From assembly GCF_011045215.1 (NCBI RefSeq), contig NZ_CP049201.1: DNA of 64,000 nucleotides, one strand, 5' to 3'. Within the stretch, counting starts at the first letter, position 1. Each line of letters opens with the position of its first letter. Shown one piece after another: positions 7,741-54,614 of this stretch. Below the pieces are notes generated by a model. That model was not told the origin of the DNA. It saw only the letters and a list, made by a program, of their open reading frames with translations, and did no database searches. The position numbers and the translations under genes are program-made. The DNA comes from Escherichia coli. Its GTDB lineage: Bacteria > Pseudomonadota > Gammaproteobacteria > Enterobacterales > Enterobacteriaceae.

Positions 7741-7854
7741 GCTGAAACGGATGGCCTGATGTGACGCTGTCTTATCAGACCAACAATTGAACTCTTAAGG
7801 TTCACTTAATCTCTGCCGCGCATACTCTGCTCCAGGTTAACGGAGGAGAGTGCA

Positions 7855-7944
7855 ATGAAAAACCGTGTTTATGAAAGTTTAACTACCGTGTTCAGCGTGC
7901 TGGTGGTCAGCAGCTTTCTTTATATCTGGTTTGCCACGTACTGA
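7855..7944 (+). CDS. pmrR: Small membrane protein PmrR (29 aa)
   Basis: ATG at 7855 preceded by ggaggagag; encodes MKNRVYESLTTVFSVLVVSSFLYIWFATY; its 3' end overlaps the convergent basS 3' end; below the length cut-off of the ORF track. Confidence 0.85.
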   Translation: MKNRVYESLTTVFSVLVVSSFLYIWFATY

Positions 7945-9011
7945 TCTTTCTTCAGCCGTATCCAGGCGCGCGTGCCAGAAGTCTCTTGCCGGTTTTGCAG
8001 GAAAAACTGCCCGTGATGCAACTGTGTAATGCGGCTGACAATACTTAACCCCAGACCAATCCCGCCATAACGGCTGTCCATACGTACAAACGCTTTACTC
8101 AACTCCCCGCATTTACTCTCATCAATACCCGGTCCTTCATCTTCAACGGCCATGACGGCTCCGCCATCTTCTTGCAGCTTAATCATAATGTTGCTGCCTT
8201 GCGGGCTGTAACGATGGGCATTTTCTACCAGATTTCGCAATAACATCCGCAGCAGGGTTGCATCACCCTGAACGGTGATGTCGGCGGCGCTCTCTGGCAA
8301 TAGCAGGGTTTGCTGGCGCTGGTCGAGCATAGTACTGAGTTCGTCATACGAGGGGAGAATGACATCTTCCAGCAGTTTTACATGTTGATAATTACCGGAA
8401 GAAAATGACTGTCCGGCACGCGCCAGTTGCAGCAGCTGGGAGACGCTCTCCATCATCTGATCAAGCCGTGCCACTAACGGTGCTACATCAATGTGATGCG
8501 TTTTCGCCAGCAGTTCCAGATGCAAACGCACCCCCGCCAGTGGCGTTCGCAGTTCGTGCGCGACGTCAGCGGTAAATAACCTTTCGTTATCCAGCGTGCT
8601 GGTCAGGCGACTGACCAGATCGTTCAACGCCGAAACCACCGCTTCGATTTCGAGGGTGGCGCTGTGAATGGCAATGGGCGTTAAGTTGTCGGCGGTGCGC
8701 GCTTCCAGCTCTTTTTGCAGCTCCGCCAGCGGGCGGGTGATGCGGCGTACCGCCTGATAGCAGATAAATAGCGTCAGGCTGACCATAAAGACGCCGGGGA
8801 CAATCAGGCTGGCGACCGCCTCGCGGATCTCACGCATGATGTGGCGATCGTTGTTGCGATTGTCGCGTAGCGCCTGCTCAAACAGCTGAATCTGCTCGGT
8901 ACTTTCATGCCATAGCCAGAAGACGCTGATCAGCTCAAACACCAACAAAATGGCCCCGATGGTCAATATCAGCCGTTGGCGCAGCGATATTGGTCGGCGC
9001 AGAAAACGCAT
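7920..9011 (-). CDS. basS: Sensor histidine kinase BasS (PmrB)
   Basis: Recognised BasS sequence with H-box HELRTPL and ATPase G-boxes; start set at MRFLRR (363 aa), upstream ATG at 9020 is an alternative. Confidence 0.93.
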   Translation of the reverse strand: MRFLRRPISLRQRLILTIGAILLVFELISVFWLWHESTEQIQLFEQALRDNRNNDRHIMREIREAVASLIVPGVFMVSLTLFICYQAVRRITRPLAELQKELEARTADNLTPIAIHSATLEIEAVVSALNDLVSRLTSTLDNERLFTADVAHELRTPLAGVRLHLELLAKTHHIDVAPLVARLDQMMESVSQLLQLARAGQSFSSGNYQHVKLLEDVILPSYDELSTMLDQRQQTLLLPESAADITVQGDATLLRMLLRNLVENAHRYSPQGSNIMIKLQEDGGAVMAVEDEGPGIDESKCGELSKAFVRMDSRYGGIGLGLSIVSRITQLHHGQFFLQNRQETSGTRAWIRLKKDQYVANQI

Positions 9012-42760: not shown

Positions 42761-44128
42761 ATGGCTGAAATGTCTGTTCTCTGTGCATACGAAGCAGAGC
42801 AGGCCGTTCTGGGCGGTCTGATGCTGGAGAATGAACGCTGGGATGAAGTGGTGCTGATGCTGAGTCCTGACGATTTTTATGTGGCTCCGCACCGGGTCAT
42901 TTTTCGTGCCATGTCTGAACTGGCGGTGAATGGCCAGCCTCTGGACCTGATTACACTGTCAGAACTCCTGGAACATCAGGGCAGGCTGGACGTACTGGGC
43001 GGTTTTGCTTATCTGGCAGAGCTCAGCAAGAACACACCTTCTGCGGCCAACATCATGGCCTATGCAGGCATTGTGGTGGAGAAAAGCGTTCTGCGTCAGT
43101 TACAGGCCACCGGAAACACCCTGATTGCTGATGTGGCGGCACCGAACGCCACATCACGGGACGTGCTGGATACTGCAGAGCGGCGTCTGTTTGCTCTTGC
43201 GCAGAACAGGACGCTCCGGGAGCGCACGGAAGCCTCTCTTTCATCCGCGCTCGATACCGTTCTGCAGCAACTGGAAAGTGTGCTCGGTTCCGGCGGTGTG
43301 ACCGGTACCCCCACGGGATTTGACTGTCTGGATGAAATGACCTGTGGCCTGCAGCCAGGTGACCTGGTCCTGCTGGCTGCCCGTCCGTCAATGGGGAAAA
43401 CCTCTCTGGCACTGTCCATGTGTCTCAGTGCCGCCCTGCGGCGGACGGAAGAGAGCGTTCTGGTATTCAGCATCGAGATGCCGAAGGAGCAACTGATTCT
43501 GCGCATGCTTTCCATGCTGGGACGTGTGGAACTGAATCATCTGCGCAGTGGCAACATGGATGATGAGGACTGGACGAGGGTGTCATCTGCGGTTGGCATG
43601 GCGCTGGGTGACGGAGGCATGGATGCGCTGGGTGAGCGCCTGATAATTGATGACTGCAGCCAGCAGACACCGTCATCGCTGCGTGCCAGTGCCCGCCGTT
43701 ATACCCGCCTGTACGGTAAACCCGCTCTGATTATGGTGGATTATCTGCAGCTGATTCGTGCGCCGGAGCTGGAGAACCGCACCCAGGAAATTGCTGAAAT
43801 TTCCCGTTCCCTGAAAGCGCTGGGGAAGGAGCTGGGATGTCCGGTGCTGGCCCTCTCCCAGCTTAATCGTCAGGTGGAACAGCGTGCAGATAAACGCCCC
43901 AATAACGGTGACCTGCGTGATTCCGGGGCACTGGAGCAGGATGCTGACCTGATTATGTTTATTTACCGCGACGAGGTCTATAACCCCGATTCACTGGCAA
44001 AGGGGGAGGCTGAAATTATTGTCAGCAAGCAGCGTCAGGGGCCCACAGGCACGGTGCGGGTCAGGTTCGACGGTCGTTACACACTGTTTACGCCCTCTGA
44101 AAATGACGGACAGGGAGGATATGCGTGA
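42761..44128 (+). CDS. DnaB-family replicative helicase (island-encoded)
   Basis: N-terminal DnaB-like domain and RecA-like domain with Walker A AARPSMGKTSLAL; start ATG 42761 preceded by gggggagggg; track ORF start 42596 is an upstream extension. Confidence 0.85.
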   Translation: MAEMSVLCAYEAEQAVLGGLMLENERWDEVVLMLSPDDFYVAPHRVIFRAMSELAVNGQPLDLITLSELLEHQGRLDVLGGFAYLAELSKNTPSAANIMAYAGIVVEKSVLRQLQATGNTLIADVAAPNATSRDVLDTAERRLFALAQNRTLRERTEASLSSALDTVLQQLESVLGSGGVTGTPTGFDCLDEMTCGLQPGDLVLLAARPSMGKTSLALSMCLSAALRRTEESVLVFSIEMPKEQLILRMLSMLGRVELNHLRSGNMDDEDWTRVSSAVGMALGDGGMDALGERLIIDDCSQQTPSSLRASARRYTRLYGKPALIMVDYLQLIRAPELENRTQEIAEISRSLKALGKELGCPVLALSQLNRQVEQRADKRPNNGDLRDSGALEQDADLIMFIYRDEVYNPDSLAKGEAEIIVSKQRQGPTGTVRVRFDGRYTLFTPSENDGQGGYA

Positions 44129-45804
44129 TGGCACACAAACCACTGAATCTCGGGGCTGCCATTATGCAGCCCGGTCGTCAGGCCAGTGCCGCCGGTAATG
44201 TGGTGGCGCTGGGGGAAACCCCCATGATTCTGACGCTGGACCAGTTGCGTCCGAATCCGGATAACCCGCGCACCACGCGCAATCCGCGTTATGACGACAT
44301 CAAAAACTCCATTCACGCCCGCGGGCTGGATACAGTGCCCAAAGTCACCCGTATGCCGGACAGTGAGCCGGATGTGTATATCTTCAGTGACGGGGGAAAC
44401 ACCCGTTACCAGATACTGACGGAACTCTGGAAAGAAACGGGGGACCCGCGTTTTTACCGTATTCATGTGCTGTTCAAACCCTGGCCGGGACGGCTTCAGT
44501 GTGTGATTGGTCATCTGGCGGAAAATGAAGTTCGCGGTGAACTGACCTTTATTGAGAAGGCACAGGGCATTCACAAGGCAAGACAAATTCATGAGGAACA
44601 ACTCGGCAGAAAAGTTTCCCTTCGTGAACTGGCGGATTTGTTAACCCATGAAGGGTTGCCGGTACACAACTCCACGATCAGCAGAATGGAGGATGCCCTG
44701 AAATATCTGTACCCCTGGATCCCCGACCTGATGGAGTCAGGACTGGGGCGACATCAGATTACGGCACTGCTGGCACTTCGTCAGGACGCAGAGCGTGTCT
44801 GGGGACAGTTTGCGCTGACGTCCGGCACGGACGCGGAATTTGACCGCGTGTTCGGGGAAAGCTGCCGGAAGTTTAATTCGCCGGAGCTGTGGTCACTGGA
44901 GATGTTTCGGGATGAGCTGATTGGAGATTTGTTGCAGGCGCTGCCACATCCCTCCCTGGACTATGACCGGTGGCTGTTGGAGCTGGATCCGAAAGAGCGG
45001 AACCGTCGTCACCATTTTGGTGAGCCGGAACCGGTGGTGGTACCGCCGTCAGTCCGTGACAGTGGCACAGGGCAGTCCGGTGCACCGGTATCCCGTATCC
45101 GGCCGGAGGTACCGGAAATCTCTGCCCCTGATACTGAGCCCGGACAGCATGATGTTGCCCGACCGGAGAACGCTGTTTCTGACACAGGCCTCACTGAAAA
45201 ATGCGGGTTTCCTTCCCCGGAGGAGACTGCAGACAGAGCGCCTTCTTCTGCCGGGAAAGTCCGGCGTTCAGAGATGCAGCCGGATATGTACGGCGGTGAG
45301 CCGGTCTTCAGCGGTGATGCTGTGGACGCGGGGATTGCCGGGGCCGCTGTGCCATCCGTTATGACCGGCGATACAGTGCCGTCCGGAACACCTGATGTAC
45401 TTCCCGTGTCTGTGACGCATTTTGCTGAAGGACGGGATGATATCGAGCATCTGCAGAATGAGGCCTTCCGGCTGGCATGGGAACTGGCTGAATCTGCCGG
45501 CTGTGCTGAAGAAATTGCCATGGACAGAGAAAGTGACCTGTCGGCTGGTTTCGGGACTGCAGAGGAGAAATGTTCGCCGGTGACGGCATTTCTGATGGGG
45601 CTGACCGGCGATGCGCCGCTGACAGTGTCTCCCGTCAGTCTGACAGACCTGCTGACAGGCGGCAGTGCGCCGGAAGCATGGCCACTGCTGGATGATGAAC
45701 ATGCCGTGAAGCTGCTGCGTCTTCTGAGTGTGCTGCGCCGTCTGCGCGCCCTGCAGCGCAGTGTGTTACCCGAAGATGATGAGGAGGATGAAAGTGATGA
45801 GTGA
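44125..45804 (+). CDS. ParB-like nuclease/partition domain protein (559 aa)
   Basis: N-terminal ParB-like region (LTLDQLRPNPDNPR...), long acidic C-terminus; start overlaps the helicase stop. Confidence 0.7.
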   Translation: MMAHKPLNLGAAIMQPGRQASAAGNVVALGETPMILTLDQLRPNPDNPRTTRNPRYDDIKNSIHARGLDTVPKVTRMPDSEPDVYIFSDGGNTRYQILTELWKETGDPRFYRIHVLFKPWPGRLQCVIGHLAENEVRGELTFIEKAQGIHKARQIHEEQLGRKVSLRELADLLTHEGLPVHNSTISRMEDALKYLYPWIPDLMESGLGRHQITALLALRQDAERVWGQFALTSGTDAEFDRVFGESCRKFNSPELWSLEMFRDELIGDLLQALPHPSLDYDRWLLELDPKERNRRHHFGEPEPVVVPPSVRDSGTGQSGAPVSRIRPEVPEISAPDTEPGQHDVARPENAVSDTGLTEKCGFPSPEETADRAPSSAGKVRRSEMQPDMYGGEPVFSGDAVDAGIAGAAVPSVMTGDTVPSGTPDVLPVSVTHFAEGRDDIEHLQNEAFRLAWELAESAGCAEEIAMDRESDLSAGFGTAEEKCSPVTAFLMGLTGDAPLTVSPVSLTDLLTGGSAPEAWPLLDDEHAVKLLRLLSVLRRLRALQRSVLPEDDEEDESDE

Positions 45805-46522
45805 TATGCCGCATCAGGAGCGTCTGGTCAGACGGGTCAGGAAACTGCTGGAGCTGAGTCGCAATAACAGTAATGCCCATGAGGCCGGGCTGGCGCTTGC
45901 AAGGGCGCAACAGCTGATGGCGAAACACGGTATCACGGAGCAGGATGCCGGACTTTCTTCGGTGCAGACGTCTTCATCACAGGGGGCACCTTCTGAGGCT
46001 GAAAAAGTTCCGGCGTGGATGTTTCGTCTGGTCATGGTGGTGTCACAGACATTTGGCTGCAGGGCGTATTACGACTGGCGGTTGATGCCCGGTGGCAGGT
46101 ATCGCCGGTGTGTGACGTTTTACGGTTTCAGTGAACGTCCTCAGGTGGCGGCTTATGCGTTTGATGTTCTGTGCCGCCAGTTGAGGGACGCAACGGATGC
46201 GTATCTCCGTACACAGAGCCGGCGGCTGAAACTGAGCACCCGCCGCGCCCGGGCCGCTCAGTTCCGCGATGGCTGGGTTCAGGGCGTTCGTCAGGTGGTG
46301 ATGCCATTCAGTGTGACAGAAGAGGAAAGCCGGCTGATGCGCCTCTGGCTGGAGCAGCAGGAGATGGAGACGGTGGACCCCCGGGAGGTGAAAGCCTGTC
46401 GCGGCGGTGACCAGGCCCGCTGGCAGGGGTATGAGGCCGGGAAAAATGCCTTACTGCATCATGGTGTGGGGGGAACAGCCCGCCAGATGGTGCCGGGGCT
46501 GATGATACGGGAGGCGTCATGA
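45797..46522 (+). CDS. Hypothetical ICE-associated protein (~241 aa)
   Basis: ORF overlapping the parB-like stop; start ATG 45797 or 45806; no domain recognised with confidence. Confidence 0.5.
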   Translation: MSDMPHQERLVRRVRKLLELSRNNSNAHEAGLALARAQQLMAKHGITEQDAGLSSVQTSSSQGAPSEAEKVPAWMFRLVMVVSQTFGCRAYYDWRLMPGGRYRRCVTFYGFSERPQVAAYAFDVLCRQLRDATDAYLRTQSRRLKLSTRRARAAQFRDGWVQGVRQVVMPFSVTEEESRLMRLWLEQQEMETVDPREVKACRGGDQARWQGYEAGKNALLHHGVGGTARQMVPGLMIREAS

Positions 46523-47097
46523 ATAACAGCTTATCTCAGGCAACCAACGGTCTGCTGATGCAACTGGTGATGGACCTCAGGAGCGGCTATCTGCGTCGCT
46601 GTGAATCTCTGGGACTGGCCCGGGAGGAAATGCAGATGCTGCAGGGACTGACCATTGAGGAAATCCATTACCTGTCTAACTCGGAAGTGTCGGTTATCCG
46701 GCTGGACATTAATCATGAAAACCTGCTGCGAATGCTGCAGCAGGCCCGGACGGAGCAGAAACGTCTGCAGCGCATTGACCGTGCCCTGGCGCTGGGTGGT
46801 TCCATTGAGCTGATGGCGTTTTACTTTGGACTTTCCAGTGTGGATGTTGCGGCGCGCCGGCGCATTGCCGGTATTGATGTTCGTCCGGGACGTGGTGTCA
46901 CGCTGAGCGATGAGGAAAGTGCAGAGCTGTGGCGGTTATGGCAGAAGGCGGGCATCACGGATGTGGAGAGTGCGGACGGACTGGATGTCATGATGCTGGC
47001 TGCGGAGCAGATGAATATCCCGCTGACGGCTATCTGGCATGCAGTAAGGGGTTGGTGCGCTGACCGGCAGACGGAGCCGGTAAGGAATGCGTCATGA
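46519..47097 (+). CDS. Hypothetical ICE-associated protein (192 aa)
   Basis: ORF translationally coupled (4-nt overlap) to the previous gene. Confidence 0.5.
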   Translation: MNNSLSQATNGLLMQLVMDLRSGYLRRCESLGLAREEMQMLQGLTIEEIHYLSNSEVSVIRLDINHENLLRMLQQARTEQKRLQRIDRALALGGSIELMAFYFGLSSVDVAARRRIAGIDVRPGRGVTLSDEESAELWRLWQKAGITDVESADGLDVMMLAAEQMNIPLTAIWHAVRGWCADRQTEPVRNAS

Positions 47098-47342
47098 AAA
47101 TGACAGAGCTGGCACCGGGCATTCTGGCCAGCCCGTGCGTTCCGCCGGCCTGCTGTCGTAAGGCGGTTCAGATGGTCATTCTGTTCCGGCAGGGTGTGCG
47201 TAATTACCGGCAACTGAATGACCGGGGGACCCGTTATTACAAGATAAACGTCGGACGTGCCTGGCGTCTGCTGAGCCGTAACCGGGGAGAGACCTGGGAA
47301 CTGCTCAGTCATGAGCGTTACAACAGCGCCAGACGTAAATGA
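47094..47342 (+). CDS. Hypothetical small protein (82 aa)
   Basis: ORF coupled to the previous gene by a 4-nt overlap. Confidence 0.4.
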   Translation: MKMTELAPGILASPCVPPACCRKAVQMVILFRQGVRNYRQLNDRGTRYYKINVGRAWRLLSRNRGETWELLSHERYNSARRK

Positions 47343-47415
47343 AGCGTGCAGGCCGGACCGGAGTATCGGGGCCGGCCCTGTTGACGACAGGGTATTGCAC
47401 AGGAAATTGATTCCC

Positions 47416-47691
47416 ATGAATGAGCTTAGCTGGAAGGCGTTAAGTAAGGCGGTAAAAAGATATCAGGATGTGCTGTCGTGGAGTCGTTCAGACAGACACA
47501 GTCCGGGCGCTGAGCGGGAATTAGCTGCTGCAGCCGGAAATATCAGGAAGGCCATTGGTGATCAGGAAATTGACGTGATTGTGGAACTGGTGACGGAACT
47601 GGAAGATGCAGAATGGAGAATTACAGTATACGGCACCCTCTTATTATGGACGTGGGCATTAATCGCCCTGTACATCCTGTATTACCGGTGA
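47416..47691 (+). CDS. Hypothetical small protein with C-terminal transmembrane helix (91 aa)
   Basis: ATG 47416 preceded by aggaaa; paralogous in its N-terminal region to the next gene product. Confidence 0.45.
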   Translation: MNELSWKALSKAVKRYQDVLSWSRSDRHSPGAERELAAAAGNIRKAIGDQEIDVIVELVTELEDAEWRITVYGTLLLWTWALIALYILYYR

Positions 47692-47705
47692 ACAGGAGAC
47701 AACCA

Positions 47706-48134
47706 ATGAACAGTATTCATTATCAGGCACTGCGTGAAGTTGCACAAAACTATCAGTCGACGCTGGCGTGGTATCAGGCTATCCCGGATAGCCCAAACGC
47801 TGAGGTTGATTGTGATGAGGCTTTGGCTGCGTTTAAGCGTCAAATCCGTCACAGGGAAGTGGATATTATCGCCGATCTGCTGGATGAACTGGAAGCCGCA
47901 AAAAAGCGTATTGCGGAACTGGAGGAAGAGAAAGAAACGTTGCGTCCGGTTGGTGTTATGAGCAGGAGAGCATTTTGGCGGCTTGAGAATAGAGGACCAC
48001 GATTTATTGCACTCTGGCCCGGACCGGGAATATACCTGCTGCGTAAACGTCCTGATGATGGCGTTATTGTTTACGCCAGAACTGACGCCGGCATTGGCGT
48101 GAAGCAGCAAAATGACGCAGGGATTAAGGATTAA
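47706..48134 (+). CDS. Hypothetical protein, soluble paralog of the preceding gene (142 aa)
   Basis: ATG 47706 preceded by aggag; shares motif IRHREVDIIADLLDELEAA with the upstream paralog (IGDQEIDVIVELVTELEDA). Confidence 0.45.
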   Translation: MNSIHYQALREVAQNYQSTLAWYQAIPDSPNAEVDCDEALAAFKRQIRHREVDIIADLLDELEAAKKRIAELEEEKETLRPVGVMSRRAFWRLENRGPRFIALWPGPGIYLLRKRPDDGVIVYARTDAGIGVKQQNDAGIKD

Positions 48135-48237
48135 TCGAAAGTGTTCAGCCAGCCCCCTGCATCCAGCAGGGGGCTGTAATAAGCATTTTTGTACCGGATA
48201 AAAAGCGGCGATATTGCCGCTACTGAATGAGGTGATT

Positions 48238-49482
48238 ATGGCGTTACCTGCGGAAAGCCTGATTGCGTATACCCTGGAAAAAATGAAGCACCGTATGACC
48301 ACCGGAGCCCGGAAGGAGGAGGGGCGAATACGCAGCGGACTGTTGTTCACCGGCAATGTGCACGATGCCATTCCGCGTCGTCTGTTGCTGGATACGCGTC
48401 TTTCACCGCTGGACAAGATGGCATGGATGATGATCCGGCTGTATGCGCAGAATAATGAGGGGGCCATTTTTCCTACTTACGATGAACTGCAACTGCAGCT
48501 GGCATCGCCGGGAAAGGGAAAAGCTTCCAGAGAAACCGTCAGCCGGGTATTGCTGATGTTGCGGATCACGGGCTGGCTGAGCCTGTGTAAACGGGTACGT
48601 GATGATAAAGGCCGGGTTCGGGGAAACATTTACGCCCAGCATGACGAGCCCCTGACGTTCTGCGATGCAGAGGCGATGGATCCGCGTTATCTGGATATAG
48701 TGGCAGAAGCCTGTATGAGCCGGAACCGGACCATCAGTCAGACGGCACGGGATATTCTTTGTGAAATAAAAAATGATCCGGGAATGCGTCACTATCACAG
48801 CCATATCAGTCAGCTGGAAGCCCGGATAGGAAGTGCCCAGACACCGGGGCAGATGGCTGCCCGTCAGCGGGTGACAGAGGACAGAATGCGGCCGGGTTCG
48901 GAAACCGAACCAGTGGTGAGAACACTGAGTTCGGCACCGGAAAAGCTGAGTTCGGAAACCGAACCGGGTAAAAAAATGGGGCAAAAAAGACAGAGTTCGG
49001 ATCCCGAACCATCAGGAAAATCAGCAGGTTATCACAGAGTCCGGGAACCGAACCATTACGTACGTAATATCACACACAGTGTGATTAAAAACACGTACGT
49101 ACTGCCGGCGTCGCTGACGGGGCAAATCAGGGAGGAAGATGCCATCATGCTGACTAGTCAGTTGCAGGCGTTGCCGGAAGCGCTGGCACAGGGGGTGCTG
49201 GAAAGCCTGTCAGGGATGCTGGGCAGTCAGTCACTGCAGAACCCGGTGGGCTGGCTGCTTGCAGTGCTGAAGCGTGCCCGGGAGGGAAATTTTTATCCAC
49301 CGAAACAGAAACAGCGCGTCGCTGCATCAGCCACCATACAGGCGGGAGCGGGAGGGCGCACCACTTCGCAGCCTGTTGTCACCCGGAAACGTACAGAACC
49401 CATTTCAGCAGAACGTCTGAGTGGCATTGTGGCAGGACTACGGGCCTCCCTTCGCAACCGTCCTGCGATGAGAGCCCGGTGA
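48238..49482 (+). CDS. Island replication-protein-like gene (resembles the SPI-7 STY4528-type family)
   Basis: ATG 48238 preceded by gaggtga; ~414 aa; immediately followed by the iteron array; family assignment from memory, unverified. Confidence 0.6.
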   Translation: MALPAESLIAYTLEKMKHRMTTGARKEEGRIRSGLLFTGNVHDAIPRRLLLDTRLSPLDKMAWMMIRLYAQNNEGAIFPTYDELQLQLASPGKGKASRETVSRVLLMLRITGWLSLCKRVRDDKGRVRGNIYAQHDEPLTFCDAEAMDPRYLDIVAEACMSRNRTISQTARDILCEIKNDPGMRHYHSHISQLEARIGSAQTPGQMAARQRVTEDRMRPGSETEPVVRTLSSAPEKLSSETEPGKKMGQKRQSSDPEPSGKSAGYHRVREPNHYVRNITHSVIKNTYVLPASLTGQIREEDAIMLTSQLQALPEALAQGVLESLSGMLGSQSLQNPVGWLLAVLKRAREGNFYPPKQKQRVAASATIQAGAGGRTTSQPVVTRKRTEPISAERLSGIVAGLRASLRNRPAMRAR

Positions 49483-49506: not shown

Positions 49507-50076
49507 AGAGCAAAAATCAACCAGTGCTGCCAGTGGCAGCATAGAGCAAAAATTAGCCAGTGCTGCTCGGGGCAGCATAGAGCAAAAATTAGCCAGTGCT
49601 GCCCGGGGCAGCATAGAGCAAAAATCAGCCAGTGCTGCCCGGGGCAGCATAGAGCAAAAATCAGCCAGTGCTGCCCGGAGCAGCATAGAGCAAAAATTAG
49701 CCAGTGCTGCCCGGGGCAGCATAGAGCAAAAATTAAGCAGTGCTGCCCGGGGCAGCATAGAGCAAAAATTAGCCAGTGCTGCCCGGGGCAGCATAGAGCA
49801 AAAATCAGCCAGTGCTGCCCGGGGCAGCATAGAGCAAAAATTAAGCAGTGCTGCCCGGGGCAGCATAGAGCAAAAATTAGCCAGTGCTGCCCGGGGCAGC
49901 ATAGAGCAAAAATCAGCCAGTGCTGCCCGGGGCAGCATAGAGCAAAAATCAGCCAGTACTGCCCGGAGCAGCATAGAGGAAAAATTAGTCAGTGCTGCCC
50001 GGGGCAGCATAGAGCAAAAATTAGGCAGTGCAGCCCGGGACAGCATAGAGTGAAAATTAGCCAGTGCTGCCAGTGT
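49507..50076. repeat. Tandem array of ~15 direct 36-bp repeats, each containing the 17-bp perfect palindrome tgctgcccggggcagca (iteron-like; candidate origin or centromere)
   Basis: Unit agagcaaaaat(t/c)agccagtgctgcccggggcagcat repeated head-to-tail with few substitutions; first and last units degenerate. Confidence 0.9.
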
Positions 50077-50354
50077 CACCAAAGAACAAAAATTATGCTG
50101 CGTCAGCAGCATGGAAGGCGGCGGCACTGAATATCCTGAAACATCTGACGGTAAACCGCCGAAGCCCGGCGTCAGCCGGAAACGTCCTGACAGGATGCAG
50201 TGCTCTCCCCGGCCCTGCCAGACCCTGTTTGTTTCAGGAAAAAGCCTGTGTCACATAAAAGAACCGGAGTACAGAGGTAAAACAGAATACTTGCCGCCGT
50301 TTTTTCCGTCAGTATACTTTTTCGTGCTGAAATTCTGGCTAAGGAAAGATTTTT

Positions 50355-54248: not shown

Positions 54249-54614
54249 TTCCGGGTTGACTTTCCATGGATGTGTTTTAAAAATAACCGGGCTTATTTGC
54301 TGCATCTGCAGCCAGCCAATGTTTCAGCAGTCTGAGAGAAACGCCTTCGGGTGACTGCCAGCCAACGTTTCACCGGCCTGAGAGAAACACCTTCGGGTGG
54401 CCGGAATATCCTCGTAGCCTGAAAGAGGATGCCTGTGGGCGGTACATCCGTTTAACCTCTGGAAACGGATATCACTGTTCAGTGATTGAGGTCTTTTTAC
54501 TTCTCAGACAGCCGGAATTCAGCTGATCCGGCATCCCCGACGGGAACATTCACTTCCGTCAGGGATGGTGATGTTCTCCGTCATCACATTTTTTAACTCC
54601 ATGGAGAAATCATC

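What the first reader, a model, noticed from the sequence alone, without database searches (positions are those of the whole stretch)
47416..48134. Tandem pair of paralogous small proteins, one membrane-anchored and one soluble
The 47416 and 47706 gene products share an N-terminal helical region (motif IRHREVDIIADLLDELEAA versus IGDQEIDVIVELVTELEDA). The first ends in a hydrophobic helix (LLLWTWALIALYILYY); the second has a coiled-coil and basic C-terminal extension instead. The function is unknown; such divergent duplicated pairs occur in toxin-antitoxin, exclusion and anti-defence modules.
Basis: seen in the sequence. Interest (0 to 1): 0.4.

Follow-up and report, generated by a model that had tools for sequence, protein, structure and literature searches.

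The report
Two phage Ea22-type genes in an ICE
Two small neighbouring genes in an E. coli conjugative island are relatives of the phage lambda Ea22 protein, one ordinary and soluble and one an unusual version ending in a membrane-type helix; they are optional cargo in a variable slot, not a locked two-gene module.

Summary
Gene 1 (47416-47691, 91 aa) and gene 2 (47706-48134, 142 aa) share a 70-residue N-terminal helical module (34% identity, E=3e-13). Gene 1 ends in a hydrophobic helix. Gene 2 has a short coiled-coil stretch and a basic C-terminal part.

Gene 2 is an Ead/Ea22-like protein (Pfam PF13935), and RefSeq already names it so. Its first ~200 nt are 82-87% identical to prophage ea22-like genes in over 1,100 E. 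coli genomes. Gene 1 is a narrow-lineage derivative found in 24 of 5,426 complete E. coli genomes, with the coiled coil and C-terminal domain replaced by the hydrophobic tail.

Both lie in a variable slot of a SPI-7-type conjugative island, between a ParE-like gene and the STY4528 replication gene. In 49 related islands from other species the slot is empty. Close E. coli and Salmonella relatives carry gene 1 alone, gene 2 alone, or other phage-type small genes. A toxin-antitoxin-style obligate pair is therefore not supported.

The function is inferred only. The likeliest role is accessory modulators like lambda Ea22, expressed with the island's activation genes. Interest is modest.

The parts
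47094..47342 (+). ParE-like toxin-domain gene (82 aa). It is the last conserved backbone gene before the variable slot.
   Evidence: PF24732, 3.9e-19. It follows the DUF2857 gene directly in all but 2 of the related islands whose sequence reaches that far. Homology to the Kluyvera and Erwinia islands ends at window 47340.
47341..48246 (+). Variable cargo slot of the island (~900 nt here). It holds gene 1, gene 2 and their flanking hairpins.
   Evidence: The slot is about 110 nt in the Kluyvera and Erwinia islands, and none of the 49 other-species islands has an Ea22-type ORF. Sister E. coli islands fill it with DUF7446, one or two Ead/Ea22-like genes and other small ORFs.
47416..47691 (+). Gene 1: 91-aa Ea22-type N-module fused to a hydrophobic C-terminal helix. 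RefSeq calls it 'hypothetical protein'.
47416..47622 (+). Gene 1 N-module (aa 1-69), homologous to the N-module of Ead/Ea22-like proteins up to the conserved R-I of the 'KRIAELE' motif.
   Evidence: BLASTP 3e-13 to gene 2. phrog_16519, 1.5e-9. Alignment A1. Segregating sites 8 nonsynonymous: 8 synonymous, p=0.013 against the neutral expectation.
47623..47688 (+). Gene 1 hydrophobic tail (aa 70-91), a putative tail anchor. It occurs as two allele classes plus in-frame length variants.
   Evidence: KD19 1.76-2.27. Helix over residues 53-90. Segregating sites 16 nonsynonymous: 1 synonymous. An ILY-repeat expansion variant is P0136.
47692..47705 (+). 14-nt spacer carrying the AGGAG ribosome-binding site for gene 2. 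It was left by a 66-nt deletion between GGTGAA repeats.
   Evidence: Alignment A3. In other islands the 66 nt are a remnant of the 3' end of a DUF7446 gene, with most positions identical in the alignment to L061.
47706..48134 (+). Gene 2: 142-aa Ead/Ea22-like family protein.
   Evidence: PF13935, 43.5 bits against a cut-off of 27. RefSeq name 'ead/Ea22-like family protein'. 896 homologues.
47706..47942 (+). Gene 2 N-module plus short coiled-coil stretch (aa 1-79, acidic).
   Evidence: Helices 6-25, 32-47 and 51-75 with block pLDDT 86-91. The 5' ~200 nt are 82-87% identical to prophage ea22-like genes in more than 1,100 E. coli genomes.
47943..48131 (+). Gene 2 C-terminal part (aa 80-142, pI 10.9), an exchangeable module.
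   Evidence: Replaced by a different sequence in islands L007 and L069. Residues 64-138 of gene 2 are 66% identical to a Salmonella phage PAT1 protein. Modelled at low confidence.
48150..48176 (+). GC-rich hairpin (11-bp stem) after the gene 2 stop codon, with a T-run 8 nt downstream. It may be a terminator.
   Evidence: RNAfold of 48135-48215 gives -35.5 kcal/mol. The hairpin is conserved in all four islands aligned. The simple terminator scan did not call it.
48214..49482 (+). STY4528-family island replication gene, the first backbone gene after the slot. The RefSeq start corresponds to about 48238.
   Evidence: NF040582, 5.4e-121. Homology to other-species islands resumes at 48237-48247.
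44125..47097 (+). Upstream same-strand backbone genes: ParB-family (BisD-like), DUF2786, and DUF2857 (BisC-like). The DUF2786, DUF2857 and ParE-like genes overlap each other by 4 nt.
   Evidence: TIGR03764 1.2e-113, PF10979, and PF11198 3.9e-66. BisC of ICEclc carries DUF2857 and BisD carries a ParB domain (PMC7423338).

Best explanation
SHOWN. The two genes are members of the phage Ead/Ea22-like family carried as optional cargo in a hot-spot of a SPI-7-type (PFGI-1 class) integrative conjugative element of E. coli. The slot lies between the ParE-like gene and the STY4528 replication gene.

Gene 2 is a standard soluble family member. It has a three-helix N-module, a short coiled-coil stretch, and an exchangeable basic C-terminal part. 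Its 5' end has recently exchanged with prophage ea22-like genes.

Gene 1 is a lineage-restricted derivative. It keeps the N-module exactly up to the start of the coiled-coil stretch. Everything after that is replaced by a roughly 21-residue hydrophobic helix.

The two genes are gained and lost independently of each other.

INFERRED. Gene 1 is a tail-anchored inner-membrane protein that displays the Ea22 N-module to the cytoplasm. Gene 2 oligomerises through its helix 3 and coiled-coil stretch, as lambda Ea22 (a tetramer) does, and uses its C-terminal part to bind a host or element target. Both are co-transcribed with the upstream bisDC-like activator genes.

They would act as independent accessory modulators when the island is activated or established. 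By analogy with the pro-lysogenic lambda Ea22, they would bias the cell toward survival and maintenance of the element. They would not act as a toxin and its antidote.
For: Family and homology:
- PF13935 above threshold for gene 2.
- Gene 1 to gene 2 BLASTP E=3e-13.
- Both hit phrog_16519.
- RefSeq names gene 2 'ead/Ea22-like family protein'.
- Lambda Ea22 itself matches PF13935 at 1e-28.

Cargo in a variable slot:
- 0 of 49 other-species islands carry an Ea22-type ORF, and where both genes lie within the stretch recovered, ParE-like and STY4528 are adjacent.
- Sister E. coli islands hold different phage-type arrays in the same slot, including two Ead/Ea22 genes in tandem.
- A DUF7446 remnant lies between the two genes in some islands.

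Independence of the two genes:
- Gene 1 alone in L068.
- Gene 2 alone in L077 and L075.

Exchange with prophages:
- 82-87% nt identity over the first ~200 nt of gene 2 in more than 1,100 E. coli genomes. The two examples read lie downstream of the replication genes of lambdoid prophages.
- The C-terminal part is swapped between islands.

Gene 1 is a real gene:
- Intact in all 9 alleles read, and annotated as a CDS in all 24 complete genomes that carry it.
- Several variants differ by in-frame indels only.
- N-module pN/pS 0.21, the same as ParE-like at 0.20; segregating sites 8N:8S, p=0.013.
- Hydrophobic tail kept in both allele classes.

Operon context and analogy:
- Same strand, 4-nt overlaps between the DUF2786, DUF2857 and ParE-like genes upstream, and a hairpin only after gene 2.
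- DUF2857 corresponds to BisC, which with the ParB-domain protein BisD forms the ICEclc activator complex (PMC7423338).
- Lambda Ea22 is tetrameric, has a coiled coil and a variable C-terminal domain, and is pro-lysogenic (PMC10834534 and PMC7093339).
Against: No experiment or expression data bear on either gene.

Gene 2 shares only the profile-level N-terminal and coiled-coil region with lambda Ea22. Pairwise BLASTP is not significant and the C-terminal parts are unrelated. Transfer of function from lambda is therefore weak, and the mechanism of lambda Ea22 is itself unknown.

Gene 1 does not reach any Pfam threshold.

The gene 1 tail shows no purifying selection at the residue level (16N:1S). 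A mutation simulation finds retention of a charge-free core only marginally unusual (p about 0.06-0.08).

Disrupted copies of gene 1 exist (P0012, P0134).

The slot carries rearrangement scars, so gene 1 could be a by-product of them.

Membrane insertion, oligomerisation and co-transcription are all untested.
Confidence: 0.5

Rival explanations
1. Anti-defence or establishment cargo. The slot would be part of an early-expressed accessory region of the island. Ea22-type proteins would use a constant N-module as an oligomerisation handle and swappable C-terminal parts to neutralise host defences or resident elements when the island enters or is activated.
For: - The N-modules most similar to that of gene 1 lie in conjugative-element or phage small-gene arrays beside Lar restriction-alleviation genes. 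One of them carries a dATP/dGTP pyrophosphohydrolase C-terminal domain.
- C-terminal parts are exchanged like cassettes.
- A STAXI RNA motif and ssb lie about 6 kb downstream. From my own knowledge, untested here, plasmid leading regions carry ssb together with anti-restriction genes.
- The tail of gene 1 and the rest of gene 2 evolve fast.
Against: This is association only. Neither gene matches an anti-defence or defence model. The origin of transfer and entry order of this island are unknown. The only experimental data on the family, from lambda Ea22, concern the lysis-lysogeny choice.
Confidence: 0.2
2. Gene 1 is a non-functional by-product. A deletion inside a longer array would have fused the 5' end of an Ea22-like gene to unrelated sequence that happens to read as hydrophobic residues. 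Only gene 2, if either, would do anything.
For: - Rearrangement scars flank it: the DUF7446 remnant and a 66-nt deletion between direct repeats.
- Distribution is very narrow: 24 of 5,426 E. coli genomes, and one full-length cluster in 1.84 billion representatives.
- The tail has 16 nonsynonymous and 1 synonymous segregating sites, and its hydrophobicity is not significantly protected.
- Frameshifted copies exist.
Against: - The N-module shows a deficit of nonsynonymous changes (p=0.013; pN/pS 0.21, equal to the conserved ParE-like gene).
- The ORF is intact in all 9 alleles read, including islands that have lost gene 2. Those alleles vary in length only by in-frame indels.
- It keeps an AGGAAA ribosome-binding site and the family's conserved core residues.
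Confidence: 0.17
3. Membrane-tethered decoy. Gene 1 would bind Ea22-type proteins through the shared N-module, either its neighbour or those of resident lambdoid prophages. It would hold them at the membrane, as an anti-factor does, letting the island tune its own Ea22 activity or prophage behaviour.
For: - The N-module fold and core residues are shared.
- The gene 2 module is 82-87% identical at the nucleotide level to prophage copies present in about a fifth of E. coli genomes.
- Gene 1 persists without gene 2, which fits a target encoded elsewhere.
Against: Only 34% identity between the two modules. It is unknown whether the N-module, rather than the coiled coil that gene 1 lacks, mediates oligomerisation. 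No co-variation or complex prediction was possible with the tools at hand.
Confidence: 0.08
4. Toxin-antitoxin, abortive-infection or exclusion pair. The membrane protein would be a toxin or effector, and the soluble paralogue its partner.
For: Small adjacent same-strand genes, one ending in a hydrophobic helix, next to a ParE-like toxin-domain gene.
Against: Each gene occurs without the other in close relatives: gene 1 alone in five complete genomes, and gene 2 alone in L077 and L075. There are no hits to toxin, antitoxin or defence models. The ParE-like gene belongs to the conserved backbone, which exists without the pair.
Confidence: 0.05

Closest known systems
Phage lambda Ea22 and the Pfam family Ead_Ea22 (PF13935); the ea22 genes of Stx phages
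   Same: Gene 2 passes the family model. It has the family layout of an N-terminal region, then a coiled-coil stretch, then a variable C-terminal part. Other alleles in the same slot end in the family's K/RGE-type tail, 'GIRIKGE'. It sits among small accessory genes next to replication and recombination genes, as its prophage relatives do.
   Different: It is encoded in a conjugative island rather than a phage. Its coiled-coil stretch is much shorter than that of lambda Ea22 (about 25 residues). Its C-terminal part is unrelated and basic, whereas the published ones are acidic. Pairwise similarity to lambda Ea22 is not significant. In the window allele the tail motif has decayed to 'GVKQQ'.
Ead/Ea22-like genes in sister E. 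coli SPI-7-type islands (L061-L067)
   Same: Same slot, same upstream and downstream backbone genes, and the same N-module type. One of these islands has two such genes in tandem.
   Different: Those are 199-244 aa proteins with long C-terminal parts and are accompanied by DUF7446 and other small genes. None has a hydrophobic tail.
Bacterial tail-anchored membrane proteins
   Same: Gene 1 has a single hydrophobic helix in its last ~21 residues, a polar helical N-terminal part, and no signal peptide.
   Different: Localisation has not been shown. The helix is aromatic-rich and only just above the usual hydropathy threshold in the window allele (1.76 against 1.6).
The alpA-parA-shi-bisD-bisC-orf96323-orf95213-inrR operon of ICEclc
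   Same: The window has a ParB-family gene and a DUF2857 gene in the same order and on the same strand, followed by small genes.
   Different: ICEclc was not compared directly here. Equivalence of the downstream genes, and co-transcription in this island, are inferred.

Membership tests
Ead/Ea22-like (Pfam PF13935) | Match to the family profile above Pfam's gathering score | tested here: met
   Gene 2 scores 43.5 bits against a cut-off of 27, E=5.9e-11, over residues 4-75. Gene 1 on its own has no Pfam hit at E<=0.1. It is linked to the family only through gene 2 (BLASTP 3e-13), phrog_16519 (1.5e-9) and phmmer hits to Ea22-type N-termini.
Ead/Ea22-like (Pfam PF13935) | Layout: N-terminal region, then a coiled coil, then a variable C-terminal domain | tested here: met
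   Gene 2: helices 6-25, 32-47 and 51-75, about 3.5 heptads at 55-79 by hand inspection, and a divergent C-terminal part that differs between islands. Gene 1 fails this feature, because its coiled coil and C-terminal domain are replaced by a hydrophobic helix.
Ead/Ea22-like (Pfam PF13935) | Common C-terminal K/RGE motif (noted in PMC7093339) | tested here: inconclusive
   Present as 'GIRIKGE(ND..IKD)' in slot alleles L007, L069 and L070 and in prophage relatives. It has decayed to 'GIGVKQQNDAGIKD' in the window allele.
Ead/Ea22-like (Pfam PF13935) | Tetrameric state and pro-lysogenic activity | not testable with these tools
   Known only for the lambda and Stx-phage proteins.
Toxin-antitoxin or two-gene defence module | The two genes are inherited together; the toxin is not found without its partner | tested here: not met
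   Gene 1 is intact with gene 2 deleted in L068-type islands. Gene 2 is present without gene 1 in L077 and L075. Neither gene is present in 49 related islands.
Toxin-antitoxin or two-gene defence module | Similarity to a known toxin, antitoxin or defence protein family | tested here: not met
   No significant hits for either protein in Pfam, NCBIfam or PADLOC. The best PDB sequence hits have E>=0.23.
Toxin-antitoxin or two-gene defence module | Toxicity of one product and rescue by the other | not testable with these tools
   Needs expression assays.
Tail-anchored membrane protein (gene 1) | One hydrophobic segment of about 19 or more residues at the extreme C-terminus, with no N-terminal signal peptide | tested here: met
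   KD19 of 1.76 at residues 69-87, and 1.76-2.27 in the variants. The N-terminus is polar and helical.
Tail-anchored membrane protein (gene 1) | Membrane localisation with the N-terminal part in the cytoplasm | not testable with these tools
   Needs fractionation or reporter fusions.
SPI-7-type / PFGI-1-class ICE (context) | Signature backbone genes in conserved order | tested here: met
   TIGR03764 ParB (1.2e-113), DUF2786, DUF2857, ParE-like and STY4528 family (5.4e-121). RefSeq annotation of 96-97% identical islands lists the SPI-7-type DnaB helicase, PFL_4669, topoisomerase III, STY4534, SSB, PilL2 and TIGR03759.

The most novel reading that the evidence does not exclude
Gene 1 would be a recently born, membrane-tethered decoy of the Ea22 N-module. 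A conjugative island would use it to capture Ea22-type proteins of resident lambdoid prophages, or its own gene 2 product, at the membrane. It would thereby interfere with another element's lysis-lysogeny decision. That would be a new form of conflict between mobile elements and a first handle on what the Ea22 N-module binds.
Probability: 0.07. Interest if true: 0.6.

Novelty: new variant of a known kind. Interest (0 to 1): 0.25.

Why it matters
Taken alone the finding is modest. Gene 2 is an already-annotated member of a large phage family of unknown mechanism.

Three points have some value:
- Conjugative islands of the SPI-7 type have a defined hot-spot, right after their bisDC-like activator genes. 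It collects the same small accessory genes that lambdoid phages keep beside their replication and recombination genes, and it exchanges them with resident prophages.
- Gene 1, which RefSeq lists only as a hypothetical protein, is an Ea22 N-module on a putative membrane anchor. No other example of this layout was found in 1.84 billion representative proteins. It is a natural dissection of the family: N-module alone, no coiled coil, no C-terminal domain. That could help find what the N-module does.
- Tractable strains carry the pair (NC101, NGF-1, UMNK88), and natural single-gene variants exist, so the questions can be tested directly.

Tried and rejected
1. Origin of the gene 1 tail as an out-of-frame reading of Ea22-like or DUF7446 sequence. 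Short-query BLASTP of all three frames against 120 homologues gave nothing significant. The DNA alignment shows DUF7446 homology starting only after the gene 1 stop codon. The tail's origin remains unknown.

2. Fold recognition. Foldseek of the gene 2 model against PDB and BFVD gave no match with E<0.2. Sequence and profile searches of PDB gave only coiled-coil noise.

3. Test of selection for hydrophobicity in the tail by mutation simulation. The result was only marginal (p about 0.06-0.08 for a charge-free core, about 0.3 for hydropathy). I do not claim it as shown.

4. Co-folding of the pair. The structure tool takes one chain and returns no interface measures, so a linker fusion would have been uninterpretable. 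It was not run.

5. The simple terminator scan did not call the hairpin after gene 2. It is reported as a candidate only, from RNAfold.

6. The longer 126-aa reading of gene 1 from the ATG at 47311, used by some gene callers (P0001-P0003), was rejected. Family homology starts at the M of the 91-aa form, and the extension overlaps the ParE-like gene.

7. Other copies of the module in the window: none were found.
Full report
OBSERVATION

The two ORFs exist as described. Gene 1 is 47416-47691 (+, 91 aa) and gene 2 is 47706-48134 (+, 142 aa). They are 14 nt apart, and an AGGAG lies 7 nt before the second ATG.

Their products align without gaps over residues 1-70 at 34% identity and 59% positives, E=3e-13. 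Both match the N-terminus of the phage protein family phrog_16519.

Gene 1 ends in a hydrophobic stretch. The best 19-residue Kyte-Doolittle window is 1.76, and 1.76-2.27 in all full-length variants. AlphaFold2 models it as part of one long helix over residues 53-90, at low confidence (pLDDT 63).

Gene 2 has three confidently modelled helices at 6-25, 32-47 and 51-75 (block pLDDT 86-91). Residues 55-79 show about 3.5 heptads by hand inspection. The C-terminal part is poorly modelled and basic (pI 10.9), while residues 1-79 are acidic (pI 4.6).

IGDQEID... is in gene 1 and IRHREVD... is in gene 2.

WHAT THE GENES ARE

Gene 2 passes the Pfam model Ead_Ea22 (PF13935, 43.5 bits against a cut-off of 27). 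RefSeq names it 'ead/Ea22-like family protein' in E. coli genomes carrying 96-97% identical islands. Phage lambda's own Ea22 matches the same model at 1e-28, although it is not significantly similar to gene 2 pairwise.

Gene 2 has 896 detectable homologues. An alignment shows the family's modular build: a conserved N-module of about 70 residues, a 'KRIAELE' coiled-coil start, a highly variable middle and C-terminal part, and often a shared 'AAGIRIKGE' tail. That tail is the K/RGE motif noted by Dydecka et al. (PMC7093339).

At the DNA level, the first ~200 nt of gene 2 are 82-87% identical to ead/Ea22-like genes in more than 1,100 of 5,426 complete E. coli genomes. The two examples read lie among small accessory genes downstream of the replication genes of lambdoid prophages, including one from an O157:H7 strain. 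A Citrobacter prophage has a full-length relative in the same kind of place. In P22-like phages the relatives lie in the 'ea' region next to xis and int.

Gene 1 is different. RefSeq calls it 'hypothetical protein'. It has no Pfam hit and only 13 close clusters in a 5.8-billion-protein collection. In an exhaustive phmmer search of 1.84 billion representatives it finds its own cluster, some fragments, and otherwise only Ea22-type N-termini at 39% identity or less.

Gene 1 keeps the family's conserved residues (A8, L9, Y16, Q17, L20, W22, P30, E33, E51, D53, I55, L58, L62, E63, R68, I69). It departs from the family exactly where the coiled coil begins: 'KRIAELE' becomes 'WRITVYG', followed by the hydrophobic tail. 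It is therefore a derivative of the family rather than a recent copy of its neighbour.

CONTEXT

The window is E. coli chromosome. The island abuts cadC and is of the SPI-7 type, PFGI-1 class. The same-strand gene order is DnaB, a ParB-family gene (TIGR03764), DUF2786, DUF2857, ParE-like, gene 1, gene 2, and the STY4528-family replication gene. Further on come MipA, PFL_4669, topoisomerase III, STY4534, SSB and pilus genes.

The DUF2786, DUF2857 and ParE-like genes overlap each other by 4 nt. A strong hairpin (48150-48176) appears only after gene 2.

In ICEclc, the DUF2857 protein BisC and the ParB-domain protein BisD form the master activator of transfer competence, and further genes of the same operon lie downstream of bisC (PMC7423338). 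By inference, genes 1 and 2 ride on the equivalent transcript.

CONSERVATION IN RELATED ISLANDS (THE DECISIVE TEST)

A scan of one genome per species with a DUF2857 profile returned 49 related islands. They come from Erwinia, Kluyvera, Pantoea, Serratia, Pectobacterium, Xenorhabdus, Photorhabdus and others. Wherever the recovered stretch reaches that far, STY4528 follows DUF2857 and ParE-like directly (two islands lack a detectable ParE-like gene), and no ORF in any of the 49 loci matches the Ea22 N-module. Against the Kluyvera and Erwinia islands, homology stops at window 47340 and resumes at about 48240. The slot is about 110 nt there and about 900 nt here.

Sister E. coli islands (DUF2857 86-88% identical, very common) fill the same slot with other phage-type small genes. 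These include DUF7446, one or two Ead/Ea22-like genes of 199-244 aa, and four or five more ORFs.

The 66 nt that separate genes 1 and 2 in some islands are a remnant of the 3' end of such a DUF7446 gene. In the window they have been deleted between GGTGAA repeats.

Among the closest relatives all four slot states occur:
- Both genes: the window, NC101, NGF-1, UMNK88 and others.
- Gene 1 intact with the 5' 300 nt of gene 2 deleted: strain C5 type, five complete genomes.
- Gene 2 with the 300-nt gene 1 segment (47394-47693) replaced by 66 unrelated nt: L077.
- Gene 2 preceded by other small ORFs: a Salmonella Muenchen island, L075.

The C-terminal part of gene 2 is also swapped between islands that keep gene 1 (L007, L069).

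IS GENE 1 A REAL GENE?

For:
- It is present in 24 of 5,426 complete genomes and annotated as a CDS in every one.
- All nine alleles I read are intact, and length changes among them and among several protein variants are in-frame. Examples are a 3-nt and a 12-nt deletion, loss of 'LSWSRS', and an 'ILY' repeat expansion.
- In the N-module, segregating sites are 8 nonsynonymous to 8 synonymous, where neutrality predicts 3.5 to 1 (p=0.013). Pairwise pN/pS is 0.21, the same as the conserved ParE-like gene at 0.20.

Against:
- The tail has 16 nonsynonymous and 1 synonymous segregating sites. This differs from the N-module (Fisher p=0.007) but not significantly from neutrality (p=0.076).
- Its two allele classes stay hydrophobic. 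However, a mutation simulation makes that only marginally surprising (p about 0.06-0.08).
- Frameshifted copies exist (P0012, P0134).

I conclude that the N-module is under constraint, and that the tail is either a loosely constrained anchor or fast-evolving.

MECHANISM

Shown: family membership, the modular build, cargo status, exchange with prophages, and independent gain and loss of the two genes.

Inferred:
- Gene 2 would oligomerise through helix 3 and the coiled-coil stretch and present its basic C-terminal part to a target. Lambda Ea22 is a tetramer whose C-terminal domain is thought to contact an unknown host partner, and it favours lysogeny and host survival (PMC10834534 and PMC7093339).
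- Gene 1 would place the same N-module at the inner face of the membrane.
- Both would be made when the bisDC-like operon is on. They would act as separate accessory modulators of the island's activation or establishment.

I put about 0.5 on this package. Most of the doubt lies in the functional part.

Rivals:
- An anti-defence or establishment role (0.2). The N-modules most like that of gene 1 sit beside Lar restriction-alleviation genes, one of them fused to a dATP/dGTP pyrophosphohydrolase domain, and a STAXI motif with ssb lies 6 kb downstream.
- Gene 1 as a rearrangement by-product (0.17).
- A membrane-tethered decoy for Ea22-type proteins (0.08).
The presence and absence patterns and the lack of any matching model contradict it.

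COMPARISON WITH WHAT IS KNOWN, AND NOVELTY

Gene 2 is a member of a known, already annotated family, in an unusual but not unique host element. Gene 1 is a new architectural variant of that family: the N-module plus a hydrophobic tail, with no coiled coil and no C-terminal domain. Nothing like it was seen elsewhere in very large searches.

The observation that this ICE family has a phage-gene hot-spot after its activator genes, and that the slot trades alleles with prophages, is a useful but incremental point.

Structure and fold searches added nothing on function.

VERDICT

The identity is resolved: Ead/Ea22-like cargo in a variable slot of a conjugative island. The coupled-pair interpretation is not supported, and the function remains inferred. 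Interest is 0.25.

Noticed in passing
window 49507-50095: A tandem array of 16.4 copies of a 36-nt unit (92% matches) lies just after the STY4528 gene. It is open on both strands: 187 aa 'SAARGSIEQKLA' repeats on the + strand and 208 aa on the - strand. RefSeq annotates a 'saposin' on the minus strand in related islands, and the array length differs between islands.
   Followed up: partly
window 47094-47342 (and 46519-47097): A ParE-like toxin-domain gene (PF24732, 3.9e-19) overlaps the end of the DUF2857 (BisC-like) gene by 4 nt. It is conserved in that position in nearly all of the 49 related islands. No separate antitoxin gene is evident, and its role in the island backbone is unexplained.
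   Followed up: partly
window 54298-54448: A full-length STAXI RNA motif (Rfam RF01728, 135 bits) lies between the topoisomerase III gene and the STY4534 and ssb genes of the island.
   Followed up: no
window 7786-7951 and 2031-2107: Two chromosomal sRNA matches lie outside the island: STnc630 (169 bits) and naRNA4/CssrE (104 bits).
   Followed up: no
window 47343-47415: The intergenic stretch after the ParE-like stop codon folds into GC-rich hairpins (-28.9 kcal/mol). Its first 33-50 nt are conserved even in islands with different cargo downstream (L075, L077). This may mark the left edge of the recombination hot-spot.
   Followed up: partly
L078 4001-4738; L080 4001-4660: Ea22-type N-modules occur fused to other C-terminal parts, one of them a dATP/dGTP pyrophosphohydrolase domain. 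They sit in conjugative-element or phage small-gene arrays next to Lar restriction-alleviation genes.
   Followed up: partly
window 35800-38600: The left end of the island abuts cadC and includes an annotated tyrosine recombinase and ParA. ARAGORN finds no tRNA gene anywhere in the window, although a related island (L001) has a 'tRNA-OTHER' at its edge.
   Followed up: no
window 47613-47705: Because of the 66-nt deletion, the reading frame of gene 2 is open upstream to an ATG at 47613, inside the gene 1 tail. This gives a possible 173-aa form. It is closed in islands that keep the 66 nt, so it is probably not used.
   Followed up: partly
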